DNA of 4,170 nt, taken from IMG/VR virus record IMGVR_UViG_2684622619_000033. One strand, given 5' to 3'. Position numbers and translations under genes: made by a program. The notes below the pieces were generated by a model that was given only the letters and a program-made list of their open reading frames with translations, was not told the DNA's origin and made no database searches. The stretch comes from a virus. Lineage: Duplodnaviria > Heunggongvirae > Uroviricota > Caudoviricetes. Below, piece after piece: positions 1,407 to 4,019 of the stretch (position 1 is its first letter; each line of letters starts with the position of its first letter).

Positions 1407-1497
1407 GACGGTTGAACATTAAAAATCAGCCTGACTCGGGATCAGTTTTTGCCAGATAACTGAAACGTATTTTGCCTGGTAACGGGCGTCATCAAGT

Positions 1498-1548
1498 NNN
1501 NNNNNNNNNNNNNNNNNNNNNNNNNNNNNNNNNNNNNNNNNNNNNNNN
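1498..1548. other. Run of 51 N (masked or unresolved sequence)
   Basis: Literal n characters in the sequence; nothing inside can be interpreted. Confidence 1.
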
Positions 1549-1674
1549 ATCGGTCATAATGGCAGATTGCGCTTCGCGTGATTGCTTAAGCCACCATTTA
1601 ATGGTGTCCCTCGCCGTGTGCTTTCGTGTTGTGTGCCTGCTTTTTACCACGTCAGGCGAGGTGGTCCCCGTTAT

Positions 1675-1720
1675 TCCCCAACAACAAGGATCTTGTTAAT
1701 CTGGATATCCCCAACAACAA
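1675..1720 (+). repeat. Two exact 13-bp direct repeats TCCCCAACAACAA (1675-1687 and 1708-1720), 33 bp apart
   Basis: Read directly. The repeats sit 15-60 bp upstream of the proposed start of the 1735-2250 ORF and bracket an imperfect palindrome ACAACAA-GGATC-TTGTTAA. Confidence 0.7.
1698..1710. repeat. Left arm of a perfect 13-bp inverted repeat (AATCTGGATATCC)
   Basis: Reverse complement equals GGATATCCAGATT at 2265-2277. Core GGATATCC is itself palindromic. A TTGTTAA heptamer adjoins both arms (1694-1700 and 2276-2282). Confidence 0.7.
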
Positions 1721-1734
1721 TAAGAGTATTGAAT

Positions 1735-2250
1735 GTGATCGCTGAATTAACGGCAGCAATGACGGCTATTCGTGAAACCGCCCAGATTGCAAAACTAATG
1801 AACGAGGCAAAAACTCAAGCTGAAGTAAATGCGGCTATTGGTGAACTGAACTCAAAGCTTGCATCTATTCAGCGCGAATGCGTGTCTCTCGTTGAGCTGG
1901 TGGGCACTTATCAAGAAATAAATGCTTCTCTCAAAGCTAAAATTGCAGAATTTGAAAACTTTGAGGCTCAGACGGAAGGTTATATCCTTAGCCAACTTGA
2001 GTCGGGAACTTTTGTGTACTCGAAGGAGGTAACCGTGAACGGCGGCAGCATAATCATGCATCTTTGTCCAAAATGTTTTGGACAAAAGATAGTATCGATA
2101 CTTCAGCCATTCCCGGTTAGAGAATATGAATTTTTTCATAAAAGCAGGTGCCTGTACTGTGAAAATCAGTTTCTTATGAATAAAAATCCGGATTACGTAT
2201 CACCTCCATCTATTGAAGAGTTGGCCAGAAAACTGAACGGCAATCTGTAG
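1735..2250 (+). CDS. Hypothetical protein, N-terminal coiled-coil plus C-terminal C4 zinc ribbon (about 171 aa)
   Basis: Long ORF ending at TAG 2248-2250. The track's 5' extension from 1582 is R/P/C-rich and looks non-coding. Start placed at in-frame GTG 1735 (AAGAG 8 nt upstream); alternatives are TTG 1729 and ATG 1759. Residues IAELTAAMTAIRETAQIAKLMNEAK...KAKIAEFENFEAQ look alpha-helical; the C-terminus has CPKC-x24-CLYC. Confidence 0.6.
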   Translation: MIAELTAAMTAIRETAQIAKLMNEAKTQAEVNAAIGELNSKLASIQRECVSLVELVGTYQEINASLKAKIAEFENFEAQTEGYILSQLESGTFVYSKEVTVNGGSIIMHLCPKCFGQKIVSILQPFPVREYEFFHKSRCLYCENQFLMNKNPDYVSPPSIEELARKLNGNL

Positions 2251-2264
2251 ATTTTTACTGTTAT

Positions 2265-2277
2265 GGATATCCAGATT
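2265..2277. repeat. Right arm of the perfect 13-bp inverted repeat (GGATATCCAGATT)
   Basis: Exact reverse complement of 1698-1710; lies 15 bp after the stop codon of the 1735-2250 ORF. Confidence 0.7.
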
Positions 2278-2289
2278 GTTAAAGAGCAT

Positions 2290-2364: not shown

Positions 2365-2595
2365 TTAGTCAGAGTTTCTTGCTAACCAGCGACGCGCGCC
2401 AGATTCGGTTTTAAACGTTTTGCTTTTGGTATACGTCATCGCGGTGAACGTGCCGTCCTGGTTGGGAAACACGCCGCACACCAGAGATTCGTTGTTGCCA
2501 AGATCAAGAGTATCCATGCTGACCTCATATCCCCTTAACGCCGGGGTAGCGGAACAAAAACCTGCTGCATAGTTAAAGTTGAACCCTGCCGTCAT
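2365..2595 (-). CDS. Hypothetical small protein (76 aa), first ORF downstream of the leftward promoter
   Basis: ORF with ATG at 2593-2595 and GAGG about 9 nt upstream on the minus strand; stop TAA at 2365-2367. Sits about 95 nt downstream of a near-consensus minus-strand promoter. No family recognised; not Arg-rich like lambda N. Confidence 0.5.
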   Translation of the reverse strand: MTAGFNFNYAAGFCSATPALRGYEVSMDTLDLGNNESLVCGVFPNQDGTFTAMTYTKSKTFKTESGARRWLARNSD

Positions 2596-2695: not shown

Positions 2696-2724
2696 ACTAT
2701 AGGAAATGCCTAATTGCTTGTCAA
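2696..2724 (-). promoter_or_regulatory. pL-like sigma70 promoter, TTGACA-17 bp-TATAGT on the minus strand
   Basis: Plus-strand TGTCAA at 2719-2724 is TTGACA on minus; plus-strand ACTATA at 2696-2701 is TATAGT on minus; spacer is exactly 17 bp. It fires leftward toward the 2365-2595 ORF, xis and int. Confidence 0.6.
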
Positions 2725-2832: not shown

Positions 2833-3309
2833 TTAAGTTCCTGTCTTGGTGATGTTCTGGCTTTTCCGTTTTGATTCTTGATTTTTCAGATAGTTAGCTA
2901 CCTTCATTTCCATTGCGGCAATGTAGGCACGAACGTCATGATCAACCCAACTAGGCTCCGTAGCATTTCCAGATAAGAGGAAAGCCACAATTGCTCTTTT
3001 TTCATCAGAGGCGGCTTGATAAAGGCTGTTTATGTCTAAAAGTTCACTTTTTGTATCTGAAGTGGATGGGGTTGGTATGGGGTATTCGTTAAGCCCCCAA
3101 TGCTCTGGACCAACCACATCAGAAAAGAAACGCCATAGTTCTGGAAGTTTGTCTTTACTTATCGAACCTTTCTTAATCCAGTCATGGATTGATGGTGGTT
3201 GGACTTTGAAATGACGTGCGATTTCCGCCTTTGATTTGACGGCTCCTGATGCAATTTTTTTGTTAATGGCCTGCTCTATCGCTCGGCCTAAGTCTTTACC
3301 ACTAAGCAT
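2833..3309 (-). CDS. racR: CI-type prophage repressor, HTH only, no S24 peptidase domain (158 aa); RacR-like
   Basis: ORF with ATG at 3307-3309 and AGGAGA 10 nt upstream on the minus strand; stop TAA at 2833-2835. HTH-like segment KSKAEIARHFKVQPPSIHDWIKKG. Diverges from a Cro-like gene across an operator-rich spacer. The length and neighbours match my recollection of the Rac racR-ydaS-ydaT region; the symbol is a family-level guess needing BLAST. Confidence 0.85.
   Translation of the reverse strand: MLSGKDLGRAIEQAINKKIASGAVKSKAEIARHFKVQPPSIHDWIKKGSISKDKLPELWRFFSDVVGPEHWGLNEYPIPTPSTSDTKSELLDINSLYQAASDEKRAIVAFLLSGNATEPSWVDHDVRAYIAAMEMKVANYLKNQESKRKSQNITKTGT
3064..3082. repeat. Direct repeat copy 2: GGATGGGGTTGGTATGGGG, inside the repressor coding sequence
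   Basis: Read directly. On the minus strand it encodes the PIPTPS segment of the repressor. Confidence 0.7.
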
Positions 3310-3336
3310 TGCTTAATAGTCTCCTATGCGCATCGC

Positions 3337-3404
3337 ATTAGGCAATACCTACTCTCGAAGCGTTAGGCATAGCCTATTGACAGTTGCATTAGGCTAAGCC
3401 TAAT
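3337..3404. promoter_or_regulatory. OR-like tripartite operator: O3 3337-3353, O2 3362-3378, O1 3388-3404
   Basis: O1 ATTAGGC-TAA-GCCTAAT is a perfect 17-bp palindrome. O2 is GTTAGGC-ATA-GCCTATT (one mismatch per half). O3 is ATTAGGC-AAT-ACCTACT (right half degenerate). Centres are 25 and 26 bp apart, between the divergent repressor and Cro-like genes. Confidence 0.7.
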
Positions 3405-3757: not shown

Positions 3758-4019
3758 GCACATCCGCATGGCGATGAATGCCTGGGCATATCCTGATGGT
3801 GAGAAAGTTCCTGCAGCTGAAATAGCCCGGACTTATTTCGAACTGGGGATGACGTTCCCGGAACTGTACGACGACAGCCATCCGGAAGCCCTGGCTCGTA
3901 ATACNNNNNNNNNNNNNNNNNNNNNNNNNNNNNNNNNNNNNNNNNNNNNNNNNNTTGACCAACAATATTCATGCCGGATTTCTTCCGGATGTTCGAGGGT
4001 AAAGTTCGGTATCAGATGA
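3741..4019 (+). CDS. ydaT: YdaT-like protein in the cII position; 3' portion obscured by the N-run
   Basis: ATG 3741 with AAGAGG 10 nt upstream; overlaps the Cro-like stop by 17 nt. N-terminus MKIKHEHI matches my recollection of Rac YdaT; the rest is diverged. Frame and stop after the 50-N mask cannot be fixed; candidate stops are 4000-4002, 4017-4019 and 4022-4024. Confidence 0.5.
   Translation: MKIKHEHIRMAMNAWAYPDGEKVPAAEIARTYFELGMTFPELYDDSHPEALARNXXXXXXXXXXXXXXXXXXDQQYSCRISSGCSRVKFGIR
3905..3954. other. Run of 50 N (masked or unresolved sequence) inside the YdaT-like gene
   Basis: Literal n characters. The length is not a multiple of 3, so the downstream reading frame is undetermined. 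Confidence 1.

What the first reader, a model, noticed from the sequence alone, without database searches (positions are those of the whole stretch)
1735..2250. Unrecognised coiled-coil plus zinc-ribbon protein in the prophage variable region
This is the only sizeable gene between xis and the repressor, an interval that in lambdoid prophages typically carries accessory, exclusion or defence genes. About 100 residues look like heptad-rich helix, followed by CPKC-x24-CLYC. It is convergent with the leftward operon and, by a rough hand count of eight 60-nt lines, about 41 percent GC against roughly 45-50 percent in int. I do not recognise the family. A DksA/TraR-like zinc finger was considered, but the Cys spacing does not fit. 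I rate it the best candidate in the window for an undescribed lysogen-expressed function, possibly superinfection exclusion, anti-phage defence or regulation.
Basis: inference. Interest (0 to 1): 0.7.

Follow-up and report, generated by a model that had tools for sequence, protein, structure and literature searches.

The report
Rip1-type prophage defence gene in sieB slot
The unrecognised coiled-coil and zinc-ribbon gene is real and belongs to the Rip1 family, described in 2026, of prophage proteins that kill a superinfected cell by forming a pore around a ring-shaped phage protein; here it sits in the slot where related prophages carry sieB and uses the same promoter-leader.

Summary
The ORF at 1735-2250 (+) is real. 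It is a 171-aa protein with a GTG start, identical to WP_000559928.1 of an E. coli O157:H7 Rac-type prophage, and it is under purifying selection (dN/dS 0.14).

It has no Pfam, NCBIfam or PADLOC match, but it is a full-length member of phrog_1244. It is also homologous to Rip1 ("ring interacting pore 1", PDB 9oox, phage HK446 Rip1 bound to T6 small terminase):
- Single-sequence E = 3.6e-7.
- Family-profile E = 6e-24.
- Foldseek probability 1.0, with no other significant structure.
- All four cysteines are invariant across the family.

"Undescribed family" no longer holds, because Rip1 was published in 2026 (Patel et al., Nature).

The less expected result concerns the roughly 100 nt upstream (1635-1734). 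They are far more conserved than the protein and are collinear with the mapped P22 sieB promoter and leader. The same block precedes at least 36 unrelated cargo families in lambdoid phages. It contains co-varying hairpins and may be the target, or the gene, of a sas-like antisense RNA.

Verdict: a new member of a known kind, with an interesting shared regulatory cassette.

The parts
1627..2287 (+). Portable cassette of leader, ORF and a short 3' tail. It is shared with phage PhiR49_1 and with Citrobacter prophages that have different flanking genes.
   Evidence: blastn gives window 1627-2287 = PhiR49_1 4342-5002 at 93.6%, and 1628-2285 at 68% in the Citrobacter loci. The neighbouring genes differ.
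1635..1664 (+). Near-invariant 5' motif. It comprises the arms GCCTG (1635-1639) and CAGGC (1653-1657) around a loop containing ACCAC (1646-1650), followed by GGTGG (1660-1664). This could be hairpin P1 with either a pseudoknot or an alternative helix.
   Evidence: Invariant across P22, lambda, HK446, HK620 and the window. Found in at least 120 IMG/VR contigs. K-12 Rac has GCCCGG/CCGGGC, which keeps the P1 stem through changes on both sides. Edwardsiella has ACCGC...GGCGG. No Rfam family matches.
1665..1690 (+). Variable hairpin P2, with arms at 1665-1672 and 1683-1690 (two C/A mismatches in the window copy). Its loop carries C/A-rich box 1, TCCCCAACAACAA (1675-1687).
   Evidence: The arms co-vary across 75 distinct leaders: own-arm duplex -8.55 against -6.06 kcal/mol for other leaders' arms, with 0 of 2000 permutations as low. 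The stems are listed.
1694..1702 (+). -10-like element TG-T-TAATCT, with GTTAAT at 1695-1700. It aligns with the -10 region of the annotated P22 sieB promoter. The predicted transcription start is near 1707-1709.
   Evidence: The P22 record annotates the sieB promoter at 29690-29720 and the RNA start at 29727. The alignment is A4. The consensus scan found no + strand site that passed its threshold, so this rests on homology alone.
1708..1720 (+). Box 2, TCCCCAACAACAA, an exact repeat of box 1 placed 33 nt downstream. By homology with P22 it lies at the 5' end of the mRNA.
   Evidence: Read directly from the sequence. Box 1 equals box 2 in 42 of 87 distinct leaders, with at least 6 box sequence types that change in concert.
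1722..1726 (+). Shine-Dalgarno sequence AAGAG, 8 nt before the GTG.
   Evidence: Read from the sequence. The same element is present in PhiR49_1 and HK446.
1735..2250 (+). Rip1-family gene: 171 aa, GTG start, TAG stop.
1741..1971 (+). N-terminal helical region, helices 3-23 and 28-79. It is moderately amphipathic and has no transmembrane segment. In Rip1 the N-terminal part is described as the amphipathic pore-forming part.
   Evidence: AF2 model with pLDDT 91.7. Hydrophobic moment up to 0.44; maximum Kyte-Doolittle 19-residue mean 1.13. The role in Rip1 comes from the review's description.
1984..2184 (+). C-terminal beta-rich domain, residues 84-150, with the four-cysteine CxxC...CxxC site. 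In Rip1 this half contacts the small-terminase ring.
   Evidence: The role comes from the review's description.
2365..2517 (-). DUF1391 gene (ydaF-like), the first gene of the leftward operon, convergent with the ORF.
   Evidence: Pfam PF07151, E = 6.6e-30; RefSeq annotation.
2696..2724 (-). Strong leftward promoter-like site, TTGACA-17-TATAGT (pL-like). Transcripts from it would read antisense through the ORF and its leader.
   Evidence: Matches 11 of 12 consensus positions. That transcription reads through is inferred.
2833..3309 (-). racR-type prophage repressor gene (context).
   Evidence: RefSeq annotation; 86% DNA identity to the K-12 Rac racR region.

Best explanation
The ORF encodes a Rip1-family anti-phage protein carried by a Rac-type prophage of E. 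coli O157:H7.

**Shown here**
- It is homologous over its full length, in sequence and in predicted fold, to the structurally solved Rip1 of phage HK446.
- It occupies the same antisense slot between the early-left genes and the immunity region as HK446 rip1.
- It has a promoter-leader collinear with that of P22 and lambda sieB.

**Inferred from the published Rip1 mechanism**
1. The protein is made in the lysogen and is harmless on its own.
2. A superinfecting phage reaches late gene expression and makes a ring-shaped oligomer, either small terminase or portal.
3. The C-terminal four-cysteine beta domain binds around that ring.
4. The ring templates a Rip1 ring, 12 Rip1 around 11 small-terminase subunits in the solved complex.
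5. The N-terminal amphipathic helices then line a pore that breaches the inner membrane.
6. The cell dies or lyses before progeny are complete.
For: - **Sequence.** phmmer against the PDB returns only 9oox Rip1 (E = 3.6e-7, query 14-150 against chain 28-159 of 164). A profile of 37 homologues gives E = 6.3e-24 for Rip1, with the next hit at 0.27. The protein is a full-length match to phrog_1244 (E = 1e-57), as is JBD30 gp30.
- **Fold.** The AF2 model has pLDDT 91.7. Foldseek against the PDB finds 9oox_M and 9oox_L (E = 4.5e-7, probability 1.00, TM 0.71 by target, 28% identity) and no other hit below E = 0.05.
- **Conserved residues.** C111, C114, C139 and C142, with Q46 and Y95, are invariant in both alignments, including the reference Rip1 proteins; G91 is invariant only among the 37 close homologues.
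- **Context.** HK446 rip1 (gp37), HK620 and HK630 hkaP and the window ORF are all antisense between the early-left genes and N or the repressor. JBD30 gp30 is antisense next to the large terminase gene, which fits the published description of Pseudomonas Rip1.
- **Selection.** dN/dS is 0.14. At least 338 complete E. coli genomes carry the locus intact.
- **Mechanism.** Described in the review of Patel et al. 2026, in a 2025 meeting report of the cryo-EM result and in the title of the PDB entry.
Against: - Identity to the characterised Rip1 proteins is only 24-31%, so the trigger specificity, and even the outcome, could differ.
- No experiment exists for this subfamily.
- I could not read the primary paper. 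The mechanism is taken from a review, a meeting report and the PDB entry.
- The + strand promoter is weak by consensus and was not picked up by the scan.
- The prophage has lost much of its early-left region, so the gene could be silent.
- Oligomerisation, zinc binding and pore formation cannot be tested with these tools.
Confidence: 0.72

Rival explanations
1. It is a Rip1 homologue that works differently. It still recognises an oligomeric phage protein, but it blocks packaging or assembly by sequestration rather than forming a lethal pore, or it senses a different ring-shaped protein.
For: Identity to the characterised members is low (24-31%). This subfamily has a specific C-terminal tail, residues 151-171. 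Reported escape mutations already map to different proteins in different hosts: portal in Pseudomonas phages and small terminase in E. coli phages.
Against: The N-terminal amphipathic helices and the whole architecture are conserved with the pore-forming reference.
Confidence: 0.12
2. It is a silent or decaying passenger gene in a defective prophage, with no current function in O157:H7.
For: The prophage lacks the recET/kil region, and a truncated exonuclease pseudogene lies next to the cassette. The -10 and -35 matches are weak.
Against: The ORF is intact and 100% identical in all 20 O157:H7 genomes listed, and at least 338 genomes carry most of the locus. dN/dS is 0.14. The leader is conserved down to the boxes and the Shine-Dalgarno sequence.
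Confidence: 0.07
3. It is a SieB-like superinfection exclusion protein, a membrane-protein abortive system, as its genomic position suggests.
For: It has the same slot, orientation and promoter-leader as sieB of Rac, lambda and P22. HK620 hkaP was annotated "putative superinfection exclusion protein".
Against: It does not match the SieB families phrog_1301 or phrog_6399. It has no transmembrane segment. Its fold and sequence match Rip1 instead.
Confidence: 0.03
4. It is a zinc-ribbon nucleic-acid-binding regulator of the prophage or the host.
For: CxxC...CxxC motifs are common in DNA- and RNA-binding zinc ribbons.
Against: Pfam and NCBIfam give no regulator-family hit. The only structural relative is Rip1.
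Confidence: 0.03

Closest known systems
Rip1 (ring interacting pore 1) of Escherichia phage HK446 (gp37; PDB 9oox) and of a P. aeruginosa prophage (Patel et al. 2026, Nature 651:1060)
   Same: It is a single small protein (164 aa against 171 aa). It has N-terminal amphipathic helices and a C-terminal beta domain with the same four cysteines. It belongs to the same phrog_1244 family. It is prophage-encoded and antisense to its surroundings. HK446 rip1 sits in the same slot and behind the same conserved leader.
   Different: Identity is only 24-28%. The window subfamily lacks the 10-residue N-terminal extension of HK446 Rip1 and has an extra C-terminal tail (151-171). Its trigger and phage range are unknown. 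The Pseudomonas members sit between the terminase genes and lack the enterobacterial leader.
HkaP of phages HK620 and HK630
   Same: It is a homologue (32% identity, E = 2e-21) in the same position between cIII and N on the opposite strand, with the same leader.
   Different: It has never been characterised. It carries only a positional annotation as "putative superinfection exclusion protein".
SieB/Esc of P22, lambda and Rac, with the sas antisense RNA of P22
   Same: It occupies the same genomic slot and orientation. Its promoter-leader is collinear with the mapped P22 sieB promoter and RNA start. SieB is also a prophage-expressed abortive exclusion function.
   Different: The proteins are unrelated: SieB is a membrane protein of phrog_1301, and this one is a soluble Rip1-type protein. 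Whether a sas-like antisense RNA controls this gene is unknown.
Other defences that sense phage packaging or assembly proteins (TerI, Avs1-3, Tab)
   Same: They are also triggered by, or aimed at, conserved late phage proteins such as terminase subunits.
   Different: They have no sequence or fold relationship to this protein. Avs proteins are large STAND NTPases with separate effector domains, whereas Rip1 combines sensor and effector in about 170 residues.

Membership tests
Rip1 / phrog_1244 | Full-length sequence homology to an experimentally characterised Rip1 | tested here: met
   phmmer E = 3.6e-7. Profile hmmsearch E = 6.3e-24, covering positions 6-152 of the profile against 16-160 of the 164-aa chain, with the next hit at 0.27. 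phrog_1244 E = 1e-57.
Rip1 / phrog_1244 | Same fold as the solved Rip1 chain | tested here: met
   AF2 pLDDT 91.7. Foldseek finds 9oox_M with E = 4.5e-7, probability 1.00, TM 0.71 normalised by target, and 120 aligned columns. No other PDB hit falls below E = 0.05.
Rip1 / phrog_1244 | Small single-protein architecture with an N-terminal amphipathic helical part and a C-terminal ring-contacting domain | tested here: met
   Helices 3-23 and 28-79, beta domain 84-150. Hydrophobic moment up to 0.44 and no transmembrane segment. The four cysteines are invariant, including in the reference proteins. Family members are mostly about 145-175 aa.
Rip1 / phrog_1244 | Encoded by a prophage as a separately oriented accessory gene | tested here: met
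   The gene lies in a Rac-type prophage next to potC in O157:H7 and is convergent with the leftward operon. HK446, HK620, HK630 and JBD30 show the same arrangement.
Rip1 / phrog_1244 | Assembles as a ring (12-mer) around a phage small-terminase or portal ring | not testable with these tools
   Only monomer prediction is available. This needs multimer modelling, pull-downs or cryo-EM.
Rip1 / phrog_1244 | Trigger-dependent membrane pore, premature lysis and phage protection; non-toxic alone | not testable with these tools
   Requires experiments.
SieB (phrog_1301 / phrog_6399) | Sequence homology to SieB and a membrane-spanning N-terminal region | tested here: not met
   PHROG scans at E <= 1 give no SieB family. 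The maximum Kyte-Doolittle 19-residue mean is 1.13. True SieB cargo behind the same leader scores E = 1e-122.
SieB (phrog_1301 / phrog_6399) | Genomic slot, orientation and promoter-leader | tested here: met
   K-12 Rac has sieB on the + strand between kilR and ydaF/racR. The leader aligns with P22 and lambda sieB. This is shared context, not protein membership.
DksA/TraR C4 zinc finger | Match to the zf-dskA_traR family | tested here: not met
   No such Pfam hit at E <= 1.
P22 sieB promoter-leader / sas antisense module (for nt 1635-1734) | Collinear with the mapped P22 sieB promoter, RNA start and leader | tested here: met
   Alignment A4 has 77% mean column identity. The P22 -10 region aligns with window 1695-1700, and the P22 RNA start aligns with about window 1708.
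P22 sieB promoter-leader / sas antisense module (for nt 1635-1734) | An antisense RNA of about 105 nt, made during lytic growth, that pairs with the 5' end of the mRNA | not testable with these tools
   That sas exists, is 105 nt long and acts in cis comes from reviews. Its coordinates are not annotated in the P22 record. No consensus promoter was found on the minus strand in P22 or in the window.

The most novel reading that the evidence does not exclude
The roughly 100-nt block upstream of the ORF (1635-1734) may be a portable module that provides both expression and self-immunity for the sieB slot of lambdoid prophages.

It would combine a lysogen-active promoter with a structured region that is the target, or the gene, of a sas-like antisense RNA made from the phage's own leftward transcript.

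On this reading, Rip1 and at least 35 other unrelated, mostly uncharacterised cargo proteins are all expressed in the lysogen. They are switched off translationally when the resident phage itself goes lytic, which solves the self-targeting problem of abortive defences.

The motif could then serve as a beacon for finding new prophage defence genes.
Probability: 0.3. Interest if true: 0.7.

Novelty: new member of a known kind. Interest (0 to 1): 0.42.

Why it matters
- **Annotation.** A gene annotated only as "hypothetical protein" in hundreds of E. coli genomes, including O157:H7, gets a specific and testable function: a one-protein sensor and effector that turns a phage's own ring-shaped packaging protein into the scaffold of a lethal pore.
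- **O157:H7 biology.** This strain carries many lambdoid prophages. Such a gene could shape which phages, including Stx phages, can grow in or be released from the strain. This point is speculation.
- **Gene discovery.** The shared leader shows that the sieB slot is a cargo-exchange site with a common promoter and leader. Dozens of small uncharacterised proteins behind that leader are therefore candidates for lysogen-expressed defence or exclusion functions.
- **Regulation.** The leader also suggests that the antisense switch known only for P22 sieB may be general.

Tried and rejected
- **Protein family libraries.** Pfam, NCBIfam and PADLOC v2 (2023) gave only sub-threshold coiled-coil noise for the ORF.
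- **DksA/TraR.** No hit.
- **Rfam.** Searched over the whole window at E <= 1, with no match.
- **Terminator after the ORF.** The scan found none. Folding 2245-2370 on either strand was not better than shuffles (z about -1.4).
- **GC as evidence of foreign origin.** Rejected, because racR and ydaS have the same GC.
- **Primary papers.** Patel et al. 2026 and Ranade & Poteete 1993 are not in the library. Literature searches for hkaP, for sieB with Rip1, and for sieB with hotspot found nothing relevant.
- **RNAalifold.** On a MAFFT alignment of short leaders it recovered only the invariant P1 stem, because the variable hairpin was out of register. I replaced it with an alignment-free arm-swap test.
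- **Strand of selection for the hairpins.** The minus strand folds better in 54 of 75 leaders (p = 2e-4). Loop composition could bias this, so I do not treat it as decisive.
- **Fetching diverged leaders.** A SieB alignment was too divergent for the search for related loci. Rac SieB alone returned only 99-100% identical copies.
- **Promoter for sas.** No consensus promoter was found on the minus strand near the P22 sieB start.

Full report
**Where the window comes from**

Apart from its two masked runs of N, the window is identical to a Rac-type prophage integrated next to potC in E. coli O157:H7 (for 1550-2400: 100% identity in all 20 genomes listed). RefSeq annotates these features:

| Feature | Window position | Strand |
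|---|---|---|
| int | 1-1119 | - |
| xis | 1088-1357 | - |
| Truncated 3'-5' exonuclease pseudogene | about 1419-1614 | - |
| Hypothetical protein WP_000559928.1 | 1735-2250 | + |
| DUF1391 gene | 2365-2517 | - |
| racR | 2833-3309 | - |
| ydaS-, ydaT- and ydaU-like genes | after racR | + |

The two runs of N in the window (1498-1548 and 3905-3954) stand for 257 and 258 real bases in strain TR01.

**The observation**

The ORF is as described. It starts with GTG at 1735, has AAGAG 8 nt upstream, encodes 171 codons and ends with TAG.

- A 94%-identical copy in phage PhiR49_1 uses the same GTG and ribosome-binding site. It differs by 18 synonymous and 10 non-synonymous changes, giving dN/dS 0.14.
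- In an alignment of 37 full-length enterobacterial homologues, Q46, G91, Y95 and all four cysteines (C111, C114, C139, C142) are invariant. This confirms CPKC-x24-CLYC.
- An AlphaFold2 model built on that alignment is confident (pLDDT 91.7). It shows helices 3-23 and 28-79 followed by a beta-rich domain at 84-150.
- The helices are moderately amphipathic, and there is no transmembrane segment.
- GC is 41.9% against 45.3% for int, but racR (42.6%) and ydaS (42.9%) are similar. Composition therefore says nothing here.

**What the protein is**

Pfam, NCBIfam and PADLOC (2023) have no family for this protein. PHROGs places it over its full length in phrog_1244, "unknown function" (E = 1e-57).

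A tblastn search of phage genomes finds relatives in three groups:
- HK620 and HK630, as hkaP.
- HK446.
- The Mu-like Pseudomonas phages DMS3, JBD30, D3112 and MP38.

The evidence linking it to Rip1 is as follows:
- Searching the sequences of solved structures gives one significant hit, 9oox, "ring interacting pore 1 (Rip1)" (E = 3.6e-7).
- With the family profile this becomes E = 6.3e-24 over essentially the whole chain. The next hit is at 0.27.
- Foldseek of the model against the PDB returns only 9oox chains M and L, [quoted passage not shown]. Probability is 1.00, TM is 0.71 by target and identity is 28%. Nothing else falls below E = 0.05.
- The four cysteines and several other residues are invariant across the window protein, HK446 Rip1, HkaP and JBD30 gp30.
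- The family is large. A profile search finds 3341 clusters (at 50% identity) with E <= 1e-3, and almost all of the 150 listed are single proteins of about 145-175 aa.

**What Rip1 does**

I could not obtain the primary paper (Patel et al. 2026, Nature 651:1060). The account below is taken from a review of it, from a 2025 meeting report of the cryo-EM result and from a 2026 paper that cites Rip1 as a sensor of the small terminase subunit.

- Rip1 is a prophage-encoded single-protein defence.
- It is not toxic alone.
- Escape mutants map to the portal in Pseudomonas phages and to the small terminase in E. coli phages.
- Twelve Rip1 monomers form a ring around an 11-mer small-terminase ring.
- The C-terminal half contacts the ring, and the N-terminal part is an amphipathic helix.
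- The complex has a pore, releases dye from liposomes and makes holes in cells, so the infected cell lyses prematurely.

I infer the same mechanism for the window protein. Membership of the family is shown here. The mechanism itself is transferred by homology at 24-31% identity and remains untested.

**Genomic context**

Every enterobacterial relative I examined lies on the strand opposite to the early-left operon, between the recombination, kil or cIII genes and N or the repressor:
- HK620 and HK630
- HK446 rip1, gp37
- PhiR49_1
- Citrobacter and Edwardsiella prophages

In E. coli K-12 Rac the homologous position, directly left of ydaF (DUF1391) and racR, is occupied by sieB. The window ORF is therefore a replacement cargo in the sieB slot.

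JBD30 gp30 (phrog_1244) is antisense between a phrog_756 DNA-binding protein and the large terminase. This matches the published location of the Pseudomonas Rip1.

**The upstream leader**

This part was unexpected. The homology shared with PhiR49_1 and the Citrobacter prophages is a discrete cassette, window 1627-2287, which includes 108 nt upstream of the GTG.

That upstream block is much better conserved than the protein. Long stretches are invariant even against HK446 and HK620, whose proteins are only 24-30% identical to the window ORF. Rfam has no matching family.

What follows the motif:
- Only 13 of those 120 have a Rip1 homologue downstream.
- The remainder carry ORFs at fixed offsets of about 68-72 or about 99-104 nt. 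They fall into at least 36 unrelated protein clusters.
- One cluster is lambda-type SieB/Esc (phrog_1301, E = 1e-122).
- Most of the other clusters have no Pfam or PADLOC match.

Where the leader occurs:
- P22 and lambda carry it in front of sieB.
- K-12 Rac has a diverged copy.
- 13 of 14 rip1 loci from different enterobacterial genera have it, whereas JBD30 does not.

**Reading the leader against P22**

The P22 record annotates the sieB promoter (29690-29720) and the mapped sieB RNA start (29727) inside this block. In the alignment, three window features line up with P22:
- The P22 -10 region aligns with window GTTAAT at 1695-1700, which is preceded by TG.
- The P22 RNA start aligns with about 1707-1709.
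- The mRNA would therefore begin at a C/A-rich box, TCCCCAACAACAA at 1708-1720, followed by AAGAG and the GTG.

By homology, then, the ORF has a sieB-type promoter. Because sieB is a prophage-expressed gene (established knowledge of P22), this is the best available support for expression in the lysogen. It is still an inference: the consensus scan did not call this site.

**Structure in the leader**

Upstream of the promoter the block has three notable features.

- *Near-invariant motif.* The arms GCCTG (1635-1639) and CAGGC (1653-1657) flank a loop containing ACCAC, and GGTGG follows at 1660-1664. Rac has GCCCGG/CCGGGC, which keeps the stem through changes on both sides. Edwardsiella has ACCGC with GGCGG. 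These are only single events.
- *Variable hairpin.* Its arms clearly co-evolve. Across 75 distinct leaders, each 5' arm pairs better with its own 3' arm (-8.55 kcal/mol) than with the arms of other leaders (-6.06). None of 2000 permutations reaches the observed value (stems listed). Relatedness among the sequences inflates this test, but the stems are visibly different sequences.
- *Duplicated box.* The hairpin loop carries a copy of the same C/A-rich box that starts the mRNA. The two copies change in concert between leader types, for example CCCCAACAAC, CCCCTACAG, TTCCACAGTCAA, CCCCAATGCAA and CCCCCACAA.

In the short leaders, the 3' arm of the hairpin contains the Shine-Dalgarno sequence.

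**A possible link to sas**

In P22, a 105-nt cis-antisense RNA called sas is made by superinfecting phage. It pairs with the sieB mRNA and switches translation from SieB to its inhibitor Esc, so that P22 escapes its own exclusion (Ranade & Poteete 1993, as summarised).

In P22 the conserved block from the 5' motif to the sieB ATG is 104 nt long. I therefore suspect that the block is the sas gene or its target. If so, the same switch may serve every cargo in this slot, including this Rip1 homologue.

Evidence for this is thin:
- The minus strand folds somewhat better (54 of 75 leaders, p = 2e-4), but loop composition may bias that result.
- No consensus promoter was found on the minus strand. 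An antisense RNA would have to come from the leftward pL-type promoter at 2724-2696 by read-through and processing.

I rate this idea at about 0.3.

**Verdict**

The gene is a prophage accessory gene and very probably a defence gene, but it belongs to a family that has now been described.
- It is a new, uncharacterised member, in a distinct subfamily, of the Rip1 kind.
- The more original lead is the shared sieB-type promoter-leader cassette and its many unknown cargoes. I found no description of it in the searchable literature. That library lacks most subscription journals, so I cannot claim it is new.

Noticed in passing
window 1627-1734 (also L133 3655-3758 in P22, L134 1398-1499 in lambda, L012 7567-7671 in K-12 Rac): The roughly 100-nt block upstream of the ORF is more conserved than the protein and is collinear with the P22 and lambda sieB promoter-leader. 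It is present in at least 120 viral contigs, in front of at least 36 unrelated cargo families. It has an invariant hairpin followed by GGTGG, a co-varying hairpin, and a duplicated C/A-rich box that changes in concert. No Rfam family matches. It may be the target or the gene of the P22 sas antisense RNA.
   Followed up: partly
loci L013-L132 (IMG/VR contigs), downstream of the motif: Other cargoes sit behind the same leader. They include a 148-aa phrog_5286 protein (11 loci), a 70-81-aa CxxC...CxxC zinc-ribbon protein (11 loci, weak PADLOC PDC-M14A hit), a 106-aa predicted membrane protein (9 loci), an 81-aa phrog_3311 protein (8 loci), and many singletons. Almost all are uncharacterised. They are candidate lysogen-expressed exclusion or defence genes.
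   Followed up: partly
window 1498-1548 and 3905-3954: The two runs of N (51 and 50 bases) replace 257 and 258 real bases of the O157:H7 TR01 genome. Window coordinates to the right of each run are therefore shifted relative to the genome, and part of the exonuclease pseudogene and of the ydaT-like gene is hidden.
   Followed up: yes
window ~1419-1614 (-): RefSeq annotates a truncated 3'-5' exonuclease pseudogene directly between xis and the cassette. Compared with K-12 Rac, the whole ralR-recT-recE-racC-kilR region is missing. This prophage has therefore lost most of its early-left operon while keeping the Rip1 cassette intact.
   Followed up: partly
window 2696-2724 (-) and 3370-3400 (+): A near-consensus leftward promoter (TTGACA-17-TATAGT) lies upstream of DUF1391. 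A TTGACA...TAATAT site faces ydaS. Both are embedded in repeated CCTAAT/ATTAGG motifs (about 2708-2760 and 3330-3400) that flank racR and look like RacR operator sites.
   Followed up: no
window 2365-2595 (-): The DUF1391 reading frame is open for 76 codons from an upstream ATG, but RefSeq annotates only the last 50 (2365-2517). The Pfam domain covers residues 28-75 of the long form.
   Followed up: no
L003 3588-3611 (HK620): The HK620 record places the leftward terminator tL1 inside the 5' part of hkaP, the rip1 homologue. Leftward transcripts would then cross the rip1 start and leader only when antiterminated, that is, during lytic growth. This fits the idea of an antisense switch. No terminator-like site was found at the equivalent place in the window.
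   Followed up: partly
L012 7406-7503 (K-12 Rac): K-12 Rac has an annotated small RNA, kilS, on the minus strand about 170 nt upstream of sieB, just beyond the conserved leader. Its relation to the leader, or to a sas-like RNA, was not examined.
   Followed up: no
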